64,000 bases of DNA from Octopus vulgaris (GCA_951406725.2 OX597820.1:123132001-123196000), one strand, 5' to 3'. Numbered from the stretch's first letter, positions 16,497-63,029 are shown. The notes: a model not told the origin generated them from the letters alone. Translations and numbers: made by a program.

Positions 16497-16578
16497 CTTT
16501 CCTGATGAGAAGATTGCATCTTGCACCGTTTATTCCTTTGGAATAAAACCATGTTGTCTTCGAAACATATGTCGAGAG
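16497..16578 (+). ncRNA. type-I hammerhead ribozyme, canonical core, in a PLE 3' UTR fragment
   Basis: CTTTC-CTGATGA-GAAGATTGCAT..ATGTTGTCTTC-GAAA-CATATG-TC-GAGAG. Helix I has 5 bp, helix II is long, helix III is the palindrome ACATATGT, and the GUC site is at 16571-16573. Confidence 0.85.
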
Positions 16579-17522
16579 TAAAGGAATTTTGTTAACATCT
16601 TCGTTCAACTCCATTTATTTATGTATTCATATATAACACACAAATTTCTGCACATGAACCCGGAGTTTCTACTCTTGGAAAGGTCGCTTCAACCGTGTTT
16701 CTGACGTTAATTTTCTACCCTGGTATCGGTTGATCGAATTTTCCATGTTGACGGTAAACATAGGATAATTAATTCACCTATCGAAAAAAAAACAATATAT
16801 ATATATATATATATATATATATAGAGATAGAGAGAGAGAGAGAGAGAGAGAAAGAGAGGAGATAGATAGATAATAGATAGATAGATAGATAGATAGATAG
16901 ATAGATAGATAGATAGATAGATAGATATATAGATAGATAGATAGATAGATAGATAGATAGATAGATAGATAGATAGATAGATAGATAGATTGATAGATAG
17001 ATAGATATGCATACATACATACGCATACCTCTGTGTGTGTGATTTTGTTTTTCTATACACGCCACACTACAAGAAACATTGGATTATTTTGATGCGATAT
17101 GATATTCTATATTTTAGAAGGAAGGAACCTATGGAGCTATGGGTTTTATACTTTTTTCGTGGTTTATGTGATAAGTAGTCCAGCCTAAATTGAAACCACC
17201 TAGGTTCAATCCAGCAGTTGATTTCTTAAAACAGTACGGTATGAATCATGAGAGAATTATCTACTATTTCTAGCATGTCAAGCGACTAAGTGTAGGTTCC
17301 TTCAATTCTCACCGAGGTCAGTTTTGTTGGCAAAACAATAACAGTTCGTTACTGCTGCTGATTTAATCGATTAATGGCCTGTCCCAAATTTCTTTCAGTG
17401 TTAGAAAGTATCGTTAGCACTATTTTGAGTATCGTGGATTAGCAGAATTATTTGACCCCTTATGCTCTGAGCTCGAATCCCACTGAGATCATCTTGCCGG
17501 AGTTGAATGATATAAATTATCT

Positions 17523-17860
17523 GCCTGGCACCTTGAGCAAGTGTCTTCTAACACAGCCCCTGTCCGACCAAGGCCTTGTGAGTGGACTCGACAGACGAAA
17601 ACTGAAAGAAGCCCGTCGTATATATGTATGTTTATATATGTGCGTGTGTGCATGTGTCTGTTTGTCCTCCCCACCACCACAGCTTGTCAGTCGGTGTTGG
17701 TGTGCTTACGTCCTCGTAACTTAGTGATCCGGCAAGACCCGAAAGAATAAGAATCAGGCTTCAACAATAAGTACTGCGGTACATACAGTCAACTAAAAAT
17801 TCCTCAAGCGGTGCCCCAGCATGGCTTCAGTCTAATGACTGAAACAAGTAGAAAATAAAG
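17523..17860 (+). mobile_element. diverged family-A SINE
   Basis: GGCACCTTGAGCAAGTGTCTTCT ... GCGGTGCCCCAGCATGGC..TGACTGAAACAAGTA. Confidence 0.75.
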
Positions 17861-17930
17861 ATTAGAAGATTCCCTGACTCTTGAAGCATTGTGTCTGGGT
17901 AAAAAAGCATGTCTCACGTTTAGCCTAGTG

Positions 17931-18256
17931 CAGGGGTCCTCAGCCATTTCTTGACGTAGCTAGTCAATGTTTAAAAACTAGTTTCATAGGTAATTCTTTC
18001 AAAATTCCTGCTTTTCGTTTTGTTCTTTGTGTTTTTTCTTTCATACATTGGTTTGTGTAGGTTGAACAGTGTAAAATATTAGAGAAACATAACTGTTTCT
18101 TGCAATGCATACCAATACATACATCTAAAGCAAAACTTTTTTCAATTGCCCTTAAAATATTATTGTGGATGCTTAATTTACTATTCTGTTGCATGGACAC
18201 TCAAACATCTTATATGAACCTTCAGGAGCCATACGGACTACAGTTGAGAACCATTG
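17931..18256. mobile_element. hAT (Charlie-like) MITE, older
   Basis: Termini CAGGGGTCCTCAGC / GTTGAGAACCATTG; flanks GCCTAGTG and GTCTAGAG (6/8 match). Confidence 0.6.
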
Positions 18257-18264
18257 GTCTAGAG

Positions 18265-18465
18265 CAGTGGGTTTCAACCAGGGTTCCGCCAGCACAGTCC
18301 AGGGGTTCCGCAAGAAGTTACAAAACTGCTAAAATCGGCAGTAATTTTTAATTCTCCTGTGCAGATATGTGTGTATAAGACTATTAAATTATTGCACAGG
18401 GGTTCCTCGAGCCAGTGGAATGTTTCCTTGGGGTTCCGCTCCAGCAAAAAGTTTGAAAAGCACTG
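18265..18465. mobile_element. hAT (Charlie-like) MITE with perfect 8-bp TSD
   Basis: CAGTGGGTTTCAAC...TTTGAAAAGCACTG; TSD GTCTAGAG at 18257-18264 and 18466-18473; internal GGGGTTCC repeats. Confidence 0.85.
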
Positions 18466-19028
18466 GTCTAGAGAATGGCTACATTATTTGATTGAAAGGT
18501 ACAATTTTTAGTGGTATTAATTAAATCAGAAATAATTCTTATCCCGTCAATGATCGGTGCTTGAGAAATACAATATCAGTCAAGTTCTAAAGTGAAGTTA
18601 ATATAATACCGACACATAAATTCATGCTTCTGCATCGATATTATAAACTATTATTTACTCTGGTAGATAAGTCAATCAGTTATTTCTGATTCTATTTCTC
18701 TGCATGTTGGTTACAAGTACAGTTCACAACATTTCTAACATCAGGAATGTCAAGAGAATGTCTGGAACTCGGTGGACTTTGTTTTCGTGCATCTTTTTGT
18801 CGCCAATTTCCATCTTCAGTTATTCTACAAAATATTTAAATTTATACACACATATACACACACGTATGATATATGCATGCATATTCGCATATTCGTAGAC
18901 GGACAGTAATACAGAGATCCATATTGCCTATCTATCCATCTACACAAATAGATAGATAGATACATACATAGATTGATTGATTGATTGATGGTTACGAGCA
19001 AGCAAAAAATAAACACACGTCTTTACAT

Positions 19029-60113: not shown

Positions 60114-60314
60114 TCTCTATCATTATATATAATTTAAACTTTAATTTTCTTTATATTTAACATTCACTATTAATATCCCTACTCTTTCTGTTAGCTACTT
60201 ATGACGTTATATCATATAATGTTTTTTTAAACAATATTAATAGCGTTCTGTCTATCGCTATACAAATCCATCATTTTTTGCTAAAATGTCGTATTGACGA
60301 ATTTCGTTTTTTTC

Positions 60315-60400
60315 ACTTTCCCGAAGAGAAGATTGCATTGTTTATACCATTTATTCTTTTGAATAGTATCAGTGGAATTTTTGAAACATGTGTCGAAAGT
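60315..60400 (+). ncRNA. hammerhead motif of the right arm (CCGAAGA core variant, GUC site)
   Basis: ACTTTC-CCGAAGA-GAAGATT..AATTTTT-GAAA-CATGT-GTC-GAAAGT; homologous to the canonical HHR at 16497-16578. Confidence 0.75.
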
Positions 60401-60879
60401 AAAAATACTTGTTTAAACCTGCGTTAACTCCATTTTTTATTCATATTATTCAAAATATTCAACGTAAACTCGAAGTTTCAACCTTTATAACAAGGAGTTA
60501 CAACACCTTTACTCGTGAGATTTTTGCTGCCCTGGTAACTATTTATGTATTTTTCCATGTTAATTGTTAACAAGGTAAAAATACACTCATCTATTTATAA
60601 TATATATATATATATATACACGAGTGGGTTGACGACTAGTATCACCCTTGAAACTCAAGAGTACCAACTAATTTGAATCAAACTGTTTTGATCCATGTGT
60701 GTGTGAGAGAGAAAGAGAGAGAGAGTGTGTGTGTGTGGTAAATGAGAACGGAAGTTGGAAGATACGATTATTAGATAGCTACATGGTGTTTATAAGAATG
60801 GTGTCATTAATGCTAAACTTAGTTCACTCATACCTTAAGGTAAATTATGTTAACAGTTACTCAAATTCATTCCCACTGC

Positions 60880-61615
60880 ACTGTGCGAAATTGCACTTAT
60901 GTATATGTAAGCATCTTGAGAGTCTTTCAGAAATTCTATTAATGATCTCATTGGTTCACATAATAGACAGTGCTTATTCGGAGCTGATTCGGCATCTACT
61001 GGAAATTATATTACATGGTTTTGCGTGCTTTAATATGGACCGAGTTATGTTATACTTAATTTGATCCTCGCTACACAAAATCGGGCAAAGATGTTGAATG
61101 TCTCTTATTGATTTTCTTGAAGCTGGCGACATGGTTGCGATAATGATTCTTGAATGAATCGGCCGTTTGCCCAATGTAAACATACGGCCCTCCCCTTGTG
61201 TGCACGGTATATTTATATACAAGATTTGTACTTATACAGAAGTTCATCAATGGACATATTGATTTTTCTCAGCATGACCATTTATTATATTTATTTGTAT
61301 ATGGGGCAGGTTTGACTTTATTTTCCGGTGTTGTTACCATGTTAACTGTATCATGATCATTTCTACTATAACGATTTGGCTGTATTTCATGCTTTTCATT
61401 GCGGTTGACATCACCGTTGTTGCTATTTTGATGCATATGTTTGCTAGATCCAGTAGGTGGGTTATTGAACTGTTGTTCCATCTTACTATTTATGCGGTGC
61501 ATATGCTGCTCTAAATTAATAGGGTTAGCATAAGATACCTTCTCGGTATGTCGATTATAAATGGCATGTTCTCTATTTGATTTAGGGAAACACTTGTCGA
61601 AAGCGGCAAAATATT
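60880..61615 (-). pseudogene. older PLE thumb/linker/GIY-YIG remnant
   Basis: FDKCFPKSNREHAIYNRHTEKVSYAN..WSC*EKSICPLMNFCISTNLVYKYTV..YVYIGQTADSFKNHYRNHVASFKK..TSL. Confidence 0.85.
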
Positions 61616-62619
61616 AATTGTAAGTTTGGATTTTATTCCCTCAAATAATAATTATTATTATATATAAGTATATATATATATATACTTACATATATATATA
61701 TATATATATATATATATGTGTGTGTGTGTGTGTGTGTGTGTGTGTGTGTGTGTGTGTGTGTGTGTGTGTGTGTGTGTGTGTGTGTGTGTGTGTGTGTGTG
61801 TGTGTGTGTGTGTGTGTGTGTGTGTGTGTGTGTATATATATATATATATGTGTGTGTGTGTGTGAGTCTGTGTGTGTGTGTGTGTGTGTGTGTGTACATG
61901 TACATGTATGTATGTGTGCGTGCGTGTATGTGTATGTATAGCTATATGAAATCTCTGAGCGAGATGTAAACAGTAACAATACGGAGTCGTAACATATAAT
62001 TGCCAACCAAGTGTGGCGTCCTATACGGGACAGTGCTACTGACGTTTATAGCCCCAGGAAGACATCTCTTCCAGCTGGCTAACGACACACGTTCTGTATC
62101 CGATTAGTATTTGCTATGGGAGGTCATCGCTCCCATCCCTAGCCTTACGTGATACATGTATATATATATAATTAAAATTCAGTTGAATTAGGCACTTAAA
62201 TTGAAGCACAGTGCTACCTCGGTATGACACGCATACCCAAACAATATTAATTGAAAATTGAATATCAAGATTCCGTGCAGGGGTGTTTGTACCTGATATA
62301 CCTGCTGTGTGTGCAGGCAACGCAACCCATCTAAGTGAAGATATCCGCTCTTGGTAATTCAGACATGTACTTTTATAAAGGTACTTTCTATAGTATTTCC
62401 GAAGTGTAGATTCCAAGTTAGGTGAAACGGCCGTAATGAATTGACACCTGTACATCTTTGTTACTTATATATATATATCATCATCATCATCATTATTATT
62501 ATTATTATTATTATTATTATTATTATTATTATTATTATTATTATTATTATTATTATTATTATTATTAATATTATTATCATTAAACAAGTGGATAGATTTG
62601 TACCGGCATTGCTGGAAAA

Positions 62620-62950
62620 ATGACTCGAGCAGCCACACAAAGTGAGAGAGCGAGCTAAAGCACCTATCTATGGTGAAAAAAACTCACAAAATGAAGTAAA
62701 CAGATATATTCTTGTGGTATGTGTATTTCTGCCTCTCCTATATCAGGTCTTAGATGCCTTTCCAAAAGTGCTACGCATACTGTTTTATTGTATGCAGCAT
62801 GGTCTCTCGGGAATGAGATTTTCGTTTTGCTGTTGAGGGGCAACAGCTCTCCGATATTTAGAAGATATATTTTTATAACATCTGCCTTGGTGTCACTGGT
62901 GGCCATCCTATATCTGTATACAAATATAGTCGCTATGTTTGATCGCTAAA
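62620..62950 (-). pseudogene. LINE AP-endonuclease N-terminal remnant
   Basis: IKIYLLNIGEL..VCVALLERHLRPDIGEAEIHIP matches ALCIAIVETHLRPDIE at ~10160. Confidence 0.55.
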
Positions 62951-62993
62951 TCCACAAGATTGTTATACTCTCTCTGTTTATTTTCTCTTATTC

Positions 62994-63029
62994 CTTTCTG
63001 TTGAAGAGCGTAGGCTCGAAACGTAAAAG
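62994..63029 (+). ncRNA. minimal hammerhead motif, probably inactive (A6U)
   Basis: CTTT-CTGTTGA-A-GAGC GTAG GCTC-GAAA-CG-TA-AAAG; helix III is the palindrome ACGT. Confidence 0.55.

What the first reader, a model, noticed from the sequence alone, without database searches (positions are those of the whole stretch)
16497..63029. Swarm of about ten diverse hammerhead ribozyme motifs, many in short (TA)n-adjacent or fold-back cassettes
Seen: type-I HHR folds at 16497(+), 36058(+), 43614(+, with a mirrored mutant at 43565), 49870(-), ~50200(-, decayed), 52323(+), 58439(-), 60315(+) and 62994(+). All have a self-complementary helix III with a 0-2 nt loop (ACATATGT, ACTGACtGTTAGT, ACTCaGAGT, ACATGT, ATCACgGTGAT, ACGT). 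Outside the core they fall into at least six unrelated sequence types. Established: Penelope-like elements carry minimal type-I HHRs that are thought to cleave as dimers through a palindromic helix III. Inference: this genome has many PLE families and possibly non-coding, retrozyme-like mini-elements of 200-550 bp that sit in microsatellites and are mobilised in trans.
Basis: partly seen in the sequence, partly recalled or inferred. Interest (0 to 1): 0.85.

Follow-up and report, generated by a model that had tools for sequence, protein, structure and literature searches.

The report
Penelope tails and two retrozyme families
The self-cutting "hammerhead" RNA motifs in this window are real but occur at the genome's usual density: five are broken-off ends of Penelope-type retrotransposons, and two belong to short non-coding repeat units (retrozymes) whose insertion ends match Penelope's, which suggests that Penelope enzymes likely copy them, probably from RNA circles.

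Summary
The motifs are real: 4 have an intact core against 0.07 in shuffles, and each belongs to a repeat family. They are not a local swarm: 28 hits in 400 kb sampled elsewhere is the same density, roughly 10^5 genome-wide.

16502, 58518/60321, 43618 and 62998 are 5'-truncated tails of Penelope-like elements (PLEs); longer copies carry a GIY-YIG endonuclease (RT too for two families). 49917 and 50237 have no parent found.

52329 is part of a young 480-bp non-coding unit (371 hits, 0 control; arrays to 12 full units). 36063 is an older ~356-bp unit joined head to tail. Both fit non-LTR retrozymes.

The added result: in 40 insertions of the 480-bp unit, 58 of 61 arm ends fall at two fixed sites, nearly all abutting (TA)n, and 19 of 21 inverted pairs use one of each. 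This is the PLE 'tail' signature and points to both cut DNA strands priming separately (inferred).

Cleavage, circles and the partner PLE are untested. The scan noted a similar pattern, without a hammerhead, in another genome.

The parts
16271..16795 (+). Family A: 5'-truncated PLE 3' tail. HHR 16497-16578 (core 16502, predicted cut after 16573) with a ~53-nt extended helix II domain; ends in (TA)n
   Evidence: core CUGAUGA in 30 of 35 aligned copies
35972..36029 (-). Family B inverted 5' arm, ending at the short end site
36021..36305 (+). Family B: part of a ~356-bp head-to-tail non-coding unit (older retrozyme-like family, 80-86% identity among copies). HHR 36057-36108, predicted cut after 36102
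43462..43600 (-). Family E long arm (with ~70-nt tail); HHR core broken by a 1-base loss; abuts (TA)n
43603..43684 (+). Family E short arm. HHR 43614-43651 (core 43618); PLE 3' tail, GIY-YIG-type frame over 1 kb upstream in the longest copies
   Evidence: 10,215 pattern hits vs 0 control; 34 of 48 copies have CCGAYGA
49816..50073 (-). Family F: short repeat with U3-A8 covariant HHR core at 49917; two 3' ends ~31 nt apart; parent element not found
50104..50848 (-). Family G: old repeat (~67-80% identity) with decayed HHR at 50237; parent element not found
52320..52641 (+). Family C: positions 1-322 of a 480-bp tandem non-coding unit (young retrozyme-like family), (TA)n on both sides. HHR 52323-52378 (core 52329, U.U at base of helix II, predicted cut after 52372)
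58393..59356 (-). Family A2 inverted arm: GIY-YIG frame 58726-59361, damaged HHR (core 58518; U4C, U16.1C); ends at the short site
59357..60600 (+). Family A2 direct arm: GIY-YIG frame 59352-60113, HHR core 60321 (U4C), tail to (TA)n
62910..63117 (+). Family D: 5'-truncated PLE tail. HHR 62994-63029 (core 62998, A6U, extra A after A9); RT and GIY-YIG frames upstream in longer copies
   Evidence: CUGUUGA in 42 of 64 copies

Best explanation
The motifs are hammerhead sequences from seven repeat families: five motifs sit in 5'-truncated ends of Penelope-like retrotransposons, and two sit in non-coding 480-bp and ~356-bp tandem units that are likely copied by Penelope enzymes, probably from self-cleaved RNA circles. 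Shown: family membership, upstream GIY-YIG/RT frames for A/A2, D and E, tandem structure without an ORF for C and B, two fixed 3' end sites in A, B, C, E and F, (TA)n targets, and one long plus one short end in most inverted pairs. Inferred: (1) a tandem transcript is cut by hammerheads paired through the palindromic helix III and the 480-nt monomer is circularised; (2) a PLE protein binds it and cuts both strands of a (TA)n tract; (3) each free DNA end primes cDNA at one of two internal start sites, about 135 and 267 nt downstream of the cut site; (4) the enzyme runs round the circle, giving arrays; (5) the two cDNAs are joined head to head. The same two-end priming would explain the fold-back PLE tails in the window.
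For: PLE tails: family A copies extend upstream to different points and into GIY-YIG then RT frames. L116 has two direct copies of the tail ~3.2 kb apart around the ORF remnants. Pfam GIY-YIG E=0.004 and 0.011, below cut-off; Atlas look-alikes are GIY-YIG and RT clusters at 0.93-0.97. E reaches a GIY-YIG-type frame in L143 and L153; D reaches RT plus endonuclease frames in L200, L217, L220, L221.

Family C: 480-bp spacing at 98-100% identity; 371 HHR hits vs 0 control; arrays to 12 full units (L124); longest Met-initiated frame 69 aa; unit fold z=-6.6 linear and -5.2 circular. 58 of 61 arm ends at two sites; 19 of 21 two-arm insertions long+short, none long+long or short+short; 8 of 8 in the sample taken in genome order. 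In L227, L230 and L236 neither arm is contained in the other, so neither was copied from the other. Units of one array differ by 0.9 on average vs 5.4 between arrays; 6 private substitutions are in all units of their array, 4 in both arms.

Long+short also holds in E (19 of 22 rows), F (4 of 4), A (7 of 10).

Literature: two internal RT start sites and both strands cut and extended by an anole PLE (PMC11167929); PLEs proposed as retrozyme mobilisers (PMC7229834); U.U at the base of helix II in an active axolotl retrozyme.
Against: No self-cleavage or circle was shown. The only RNA hint is a 510-nt (480+30) contig in one run that is only guessed to be RNA; a tandem transcript or DNA gives the same. 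No autonomous partner was found: in the visible part of the output (it was cut) the 480-bp unit shared only 11-21-nt chance-level matches with the PLE tails. Most private substitutions (39 of 46) are in one unit only and 23 of 27 in one arm only, as expected of later mutation and neutral on the template. 66 of the 92 within-array pairs come from one array (L124), and assembly polishing could homogenise units. B has no array beyond about two units in 25 junction loci. D (A6U) and E (U4C, no G10.1-C11.1 pair) carry core changes that lower activity in other hammerheads (PMC3088659 passages on A6C and U4C). In the anole PLE, ribozyme cleavage was not needed for insertion in vitro, and 8 of 9 Xenopus retrozyme dimers did not cleave.
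Confidence: 0.68

Rival explanations
1. The 480-bp and 356-bp units are moved by PLE enzymes, but from linear multimeric transcripts of existing arrays; long arrays grow or homogenise later by unequal crossover, and the hammerhead is incidental.
For: Linear multimers predict the same ends and arrays. Unequal crossover is the model offered in bioRxiv 10.64898/2026.07.22.740005. PLE insertion in vitro did not need ribozyme cleavage. No direct sign of a circle here.
Against: The unit folds as a highly self-paired RNA (z -5 to -6.6; PLE 3' regions -2.1 and -0.5), as expressed retrozyme circles do (PMC7229834). The core is intact in 32 of 34 copies, though the family is young. Private changes present in both inverted arms (4 cases) are not what crossover within a direct array gives.
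Confidence: 0.22
2. All cassettes are a distinct class of fixed-length 200-550 bp non-coding mini-elements.
For: Most copies of D, E and F are short and sit in (TA)n. No ORF was linked to F or G.
Against: 5' ends vary in every family examined. A, D and E run into endonuclease frames in longer copies. B and C are tandem units.
Confidence: 0.05
3. The motifs are chance matches in AT-rich DNA and the fold-backs are long-read assembly artefacts.
For: Relaxed descriptors give many shuffle hits. Rfam finds no hammerhead. Single-motif folds are weak.
Against: Intact-core hits exceed shuffles (4 vs 0.07; 28 vs 0, 0, 3, 1). Pattern controls are 0. Inverted arms differ in sequence and end at two family-specific sites, which a fold-back read would not do.
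Confidence: 0.02

Closest known systems
Metazoan non-LTR retrozymes (Cervera & de la Pena 2020, PMC7229834; Li, Clavereau & Pollet 2026, bioRxiv 10.64898/2026.07.22.740005)
   Same: Non-coding tandem units with one type I HHR each, GC under 50%, highly self-paired fold, co-occurring with PLEs. U.U at the base of helix II as in axolotl HHR_Amex2.
   Different: 480 bp is above the 150-450 bp range of the 2020 paper but inside the 51-972 bp range of the 2026 preprint. (TA)n targeting, two fixed end sites and inverted arms are not described in the parts of those papers I read. No sequence link to a pLTR was found here. Circles and cleavage are untested here.
Endonuclease-bearing Penelope-like elements with pLTR hammerheads (Cervera & de la Pena 2014, PMC4209133; Craig et al. 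2021, PMC8557442; Arkhipova et al. 2013, PMC3846280)
   Same: RT followed by C-terminal GIY-YIG, HHR in the 3' repeat, heavy 5' truncation, inverted 5' copies, tail on one inverted repeat, microsatellite bias, palindromic helix III, extra base after A9, U3-A8 covariant core, Asn-rich linker in family A.
   Different: Tails run from ~31 to ~150-180 nt here against 30-40 nt described. Family A/A2 has a 53-55 nt helix II domain. D has family-wide A6U and E mostly U4C. Density is about 1 motif per 14 kb (different descriptor from the papers). Clade labels (Neptune for D, Nematis for A and E) are recalled from motifs and were not tested.
Poseidon element of Anolis carolinensis in vitro (Frangieh et al. 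2024, PMC11167929)
   Same: Two internal RT start sites define the tail; both DNA strands are cut and extended at AT-rich targets; a protein dimer is predicted.
   Different: That study saw no strand difference in start site and no homology between start site and target. Here the two arms of one insertion take different sites, and both sites of the 480-bp unit overlap a short TAT/ATATA match to the target.

Membership tests
Non-LTR retrozyme (family C, 52329) | Head-to-tail repeats of a few hundred bp, one type I HHR per unit | tested here: met
   480-bp units, arrays to 12 full units
Non-LTR retrozyme (family C, 52329) | No protein coding | tested here: met
   longest stop-free frame 70 aa, longest Met-initiated 69 aa in a natural dimer
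Non-LTR retrozyme (family C, 52329) | Dispersed multi-copy family | tested here: met
   371 hits vs 0 control; listed hits on many chromosomes
Non-LTR retrozyme (family C, 52329) | Highly self-paired unit RNA | tested here: met
   predicted only: z -6.6 linear, -5.2 circular, 68% paired
Non-LTR retrozyme (family C, 52329) | Self-cleavage of the transcript | not testable with these tools
   core intact in 32 of 34 copies; no assay
Non-LTR retrozyme (family C, 52329) | Accumulates as circular RNA | tested here: inconclusive
   only contigs of guessed-RNA runs; one 510-nt whole-unit contig
Non-LTR retrozyme (family B, 36063) | Head-to-tail repeat with at least two HHR-bearing units | tested here: inconclusive
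   25 loci fetched with the junction query; 23 show unit end followed by unit start with both reference queries; longest about 1.6-1.8 units (L175, L197); no long array seen
EN+ Penelope-like element (A/A2) | RT then C-terminal GIY-YIG upstream of the HHR | tested here: met
   L116 and L117 frames, broken; Pfam GIY-YIG below cut-off; Atlas look-alikes; Pfam found nothing for the RT piece
EN+ Penelope-like element (D) | RT then C-terminal GIY-YIG upstream of the HHR | tested here: met
   RT and endonuclease motifs read by eye in broken frames of L200, L217, L220, L221; no profile search run
EN+ Penelope-like element (E) | RT then C-terminal GIY-YIG upstream of the HHR | tested here: inconclusive
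   endonuclease frame in L143 and L153, similar to the window's by tblastn E~1e-11; RT not reached
EN+ Penelope-like element (F, G) | Coding region upstream of the HHR | tested here: inconclusive
   no linked ORF within 1.5 kb in 20 and 15 loci
EN+ Penelope-like element (A, E, F) | 5' truncation, inverted 5' copies, tail on one end | tested here: met
Minimal type I hammerhead | CUGANGA...GAAA...UH core with helices I-III, above chance | tested here: met
   4 of 10 cited motifs intact; the others carry family-level or private core changes
Minimal type I hammerhead | Cleavage as a dimer through helix III | not testable with these tools
   duplex energies -1.7 to -12.1 kcal/mol vs about 0 as hairpins; prediction only

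The most novel reading that the evidence does not exclude
Animal retrozymes are integrated by twin-primed reverse transcription of RNA circles: a PLE dimer cuts both strands of a (TA)n tract and each end starts on its own fixed site of one circle. The 480-bp family would be a genomic record of this, the rule would also explain head-to-head PLE inversions, and this genome would hold at least three such families among some 10^5 hammerheads.
Probability: 0.45. Interest if true: 0.72.

Novelty: new member of a known kind. Interest (0 to 1): 0.5.

Why it matters
Which enzyme moves animal retrozymes, and how Penelope elements make their inverted ends, are stated as open in the papers read. A young, near-identical 480-nt non-coding template with two mapped start sites and a defined (TA)n target is a small, direct substrate for the existing in vitro PLE assay. 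The motif density (about 1 per 14 kb) also makes hammerheads a sizeable class of genomic sequence in this animal. The elements themselves belong to known classes.

Tried and rejected
Rfam scan: no hammerhead family among 115 matches at E<=1; most were microsatellite or palindrome matches to miRNA models.

DNA search with the 77-bp family E arm found nothing, not even itself; a pattern search then gave 10,215 hits.

'Candidates of the first look' (2355, 1416, 1912, 3183, 1305) are not copy numbers: family C had 1912 candidates but 371 HHR pattern hits.

Sequencing runs: no RNA holder listed on record. Contigs of guessed-RNA runs cover the unit and not the unique flank 51700-52239, but the presumed DNA run barely covers that flank either, so this is no evidence.

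No autonomous partner for family C: tblastn hits near C loci were scattered and of mixed families. The nucleotide comparison with PLE tails was swamped by (TA)n and its output cut.

PDB sequence search and Pfam with the RT piece gave nothing relevant.

Rejected: 'local swarm'; '49870 is decayed' (family-wide U3-A8); a link between 36063 and the neighbouring retroelement-like frame at 36490-36807 (no B copy extends into it).

Rows left out: L127 (N run) from the end statistics; overlapping loci merged to one per insertion; L123 counted as one two-arm insertion although 5.3 kb lies between its arms.

Literature searches for prior description listed no paper on these families or on tail-type ends in retrozymes. 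The library lacks most subscription papers, Repbase was not available, and no supplements were read. The word 'octopus' in those searches was my guess from genome size and repeat content, not a tool result.
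Full report
Setting. The window is G000:C7:123132001-123196000 of a 2.8-Gb genome in 227 contigs, 25-43% GC and full of microsatellites.

1. Observation. A type I descriptor found 2 strict and 4 intact-core motifs (16502, 36063, 43618, 52329) against shuffle means of 0.03 and 0.07, and 6 against 0.97 with one core mismatch. 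Four cited motifs fail every setting: 58518 (U4C, U16.1C), the mirrored arm at 43577-43600, 49917 and 50237. Homology shows that 49917 has the U3-A8 covariant core in 19 of 22 copies, a variant reported in Schistosoma PLEs (PMC4209133). 50237 is a worn copy of an old family. Rfam sees none of them. In 40 stretches of 10 kb placed at round coordinates the descriptor, now also accepting U3-A8, gave 28 hits in 15 stretches against 0, 0, 3 and 1 in four shuffles; the window gave 4. The window is therefore typical. The rough genome total is 1.4-1.9 x 10^5 (7 of the 28 hits are one array).

2. PLE tails. Family A (16271-16795): 30 loci at 92-100% over the query end at two 3' sites about 150-180 nt apart and extend upstream to different points. 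The longest run into a GIY-YIG frame, an Asn-rich linker and RT remnants; L116 has two direct tails about 3.2 kb apart. The window's 58393-60600 is a sister family as a 964-bp inverted pair at 99% with the endonuclease frame in both arms. Family E (43462-43684) has 10,215 pattern hits vs 0 control and reaches an endonuclease frame over 1 kb upstream in 2 of 20 loci. Family D (62910-63117) reaches RT and endonuclease frames in L200, L217, L220 and L221 of 25 loci. Truncation, inverted 5' copies, a tail on one end and (TA)n bias are all described for PLEs (PMC8557442 passages; PMC3846280 passages). F and G have no parent in the loci seen.

3. Retrozyme-like units. The 52320-52641 cassette matches positions 1-322 of a 480-bp unit that recurs head to tail at 98-100% identity, with older copies at 90-95%. 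Its HHR pattern has 371 hits vs 0 control. Arrays reach 12 full units. It has no ORF over 70 codons and folds far better than shuffles. Its U.U mismatch at the base of helix II has a precedent in an axolotl retrozyme that cleaves weakly alone and well as a dimer (PMC7229834). The 36021-36305 cassette belongs to an older family in which the sequence upstream of the HHR is the unit's own 3' end, period about 356 bp; no array beyond about two units was seen. A third family (359 bp, canonical HHR, same two-arm layout) turned up in one sampled stretch, L254.

4. End rule. In 40 insertions of the 480-bp unit (L127 left out, overlapping loci merged), 58 of 61 arm ends lie at position ~190 (24) or ~320 (34), nearly all followed by (TA)n. 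Of 21 two-arm insertions, 19 have one of each, none has two of a kind, and 2 have one irregular end. The first 20 insertions came from a query covering positions 1-281, which favours long ends. The 8 two-arm cases from the pattern sample in genome order are all long+short (0.5^8 = 0.004 if ends were chosen independently and equally). The unit has 16 TAT sites, so microhomology alone does not pick the two. In L227, L230 and L236 each arm holds sequence the other lacks, which excludes copying of one arm from the other. The rule also holds in PLE tails: E 19 of 22 rows, F 4 of 4, A 7 of 10 (the other three have an irregular end); B is noisier. All three two-arm cassettes in the window obey it.

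5. Mechanism. An anole PLE cuts and extends both strands at AT-rich DNA and starts reverse transcription at two internal RNA sites that define the genomic tail (PMC11167929). I infer that each cut strand primes at one of the two sites and that the cDNAs are joined head to head. On a circular 480-nt RNA this gives arrays. Units within an array are more alike than between arrays (0.9 vs 5.4 differences, 46 units; 66 of 92 within-pairs are from one array), and 6 private substitutions are in every unit of their array, 4 in both arms; 39 others are in one unit only. This fits a single template but does not separate a circle from a linear multimer. The earlier explanation of head-to-head inversions was self-priming on an antisense template (PMC3846280); the non-nested arms argue against it for this family.

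6. What is not shown. No cleavage, no circle, no partner PLE. RNA evidence is limited to contigs of runs only guessed to be RNA. Families D and E carry core changes likely to weaken cleavage.

7. Comparison and novelty. PLE hammerheads, their abundance and their opposite-strand pairs are known. Non-LTR retrozymes are known, and PLEs are the proposed mobilisers on grounds of co-occurrence and pLTR similarity. I found no description of tail-type ends or the long+short rule in retrozymes (searches; limited library). One earlier AI note from this scan (e1-7810660) reports a similar insertion pattern for a tRNA-bearing unit in another genome; I did not check it.

Papers seen: PMC4209133 parts 1-2 of 4; bioRxiv 10.64898/2026.07.22.740005 parts 1-3 of 5; PMC11167929 parts 1-2 of 4; PMC7229834 parts 2-3 of 6 plus passages; PMC8557442, PMC3846280 and PMC3088659 passages only. 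No supplements were read; they may list mollusc families or end structures.

8. Verdict. Real motifs, known classes, ordinary density for this genome. The young 480-bp family and its end rule are the part worth following. Interest 0.5.

Noticed in passing
L254:2097-4768 (G000:C1, near 20.00 Mb): A third retrozyme-like family: 359-bp unit, canonical-looking HHR, 7 motifs in two inverted arms ending at positions 216 and 263 in (TA)n; circular fold z -5.8.
   Followed up: partly
window 16509-16561, 60328-60382; L256, L259, L282, L283, L285, L289: Many intact-core motifs have a 45-60 nt helix II domain with good helix I and palindromic helix III (7 such hits in these six sampled stretches); descriptors with short helix II would miss them.
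   Followed up: partly
families D and E (62998, 43618): Family-wide core changes: CUGUUGA (A6U) in 42 of 64 D copies and CCGAYGA (U4C) in 34 of 48 E copies; the window's E copy is a minority U4 form.
   Followed up: partly
window 58125-58308: 184-bp fold-back at 94.6% next to (TA)n with no hammerhead core seen; possibly another PLE-type end.
   Followed up: no
window 36490-36807 (-): 105-aa frame between (ATT)n tracts resembling the C-terminal restriction-like endonuclease of a non-LTR retrotransposon (recalled; no Pfam hit).
   Followed up: no
window 4124-4633 (-) and 61068-61613 (-): Two more decayed GIY-YIG PLE fragments by tblastn, without a recognised hammerhead.
   Followed up: partly
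window 52666-53110: High-copy repeat right of the 480-bp unit fragment, covered by contigs in three guessed-RNA runs; not identified.
   Followed up: no
L123:1831-9085: Two arms of the 480-bp unit 5.3 kb apart whose outer flanks are inverted copies of each other; may be one insertion with a captured or later-inserted middle.
   Followed up: no
window 4633-5728 (+): Broken frames that look transposase-like by eye (recalled, not tested).
   Followed up: no
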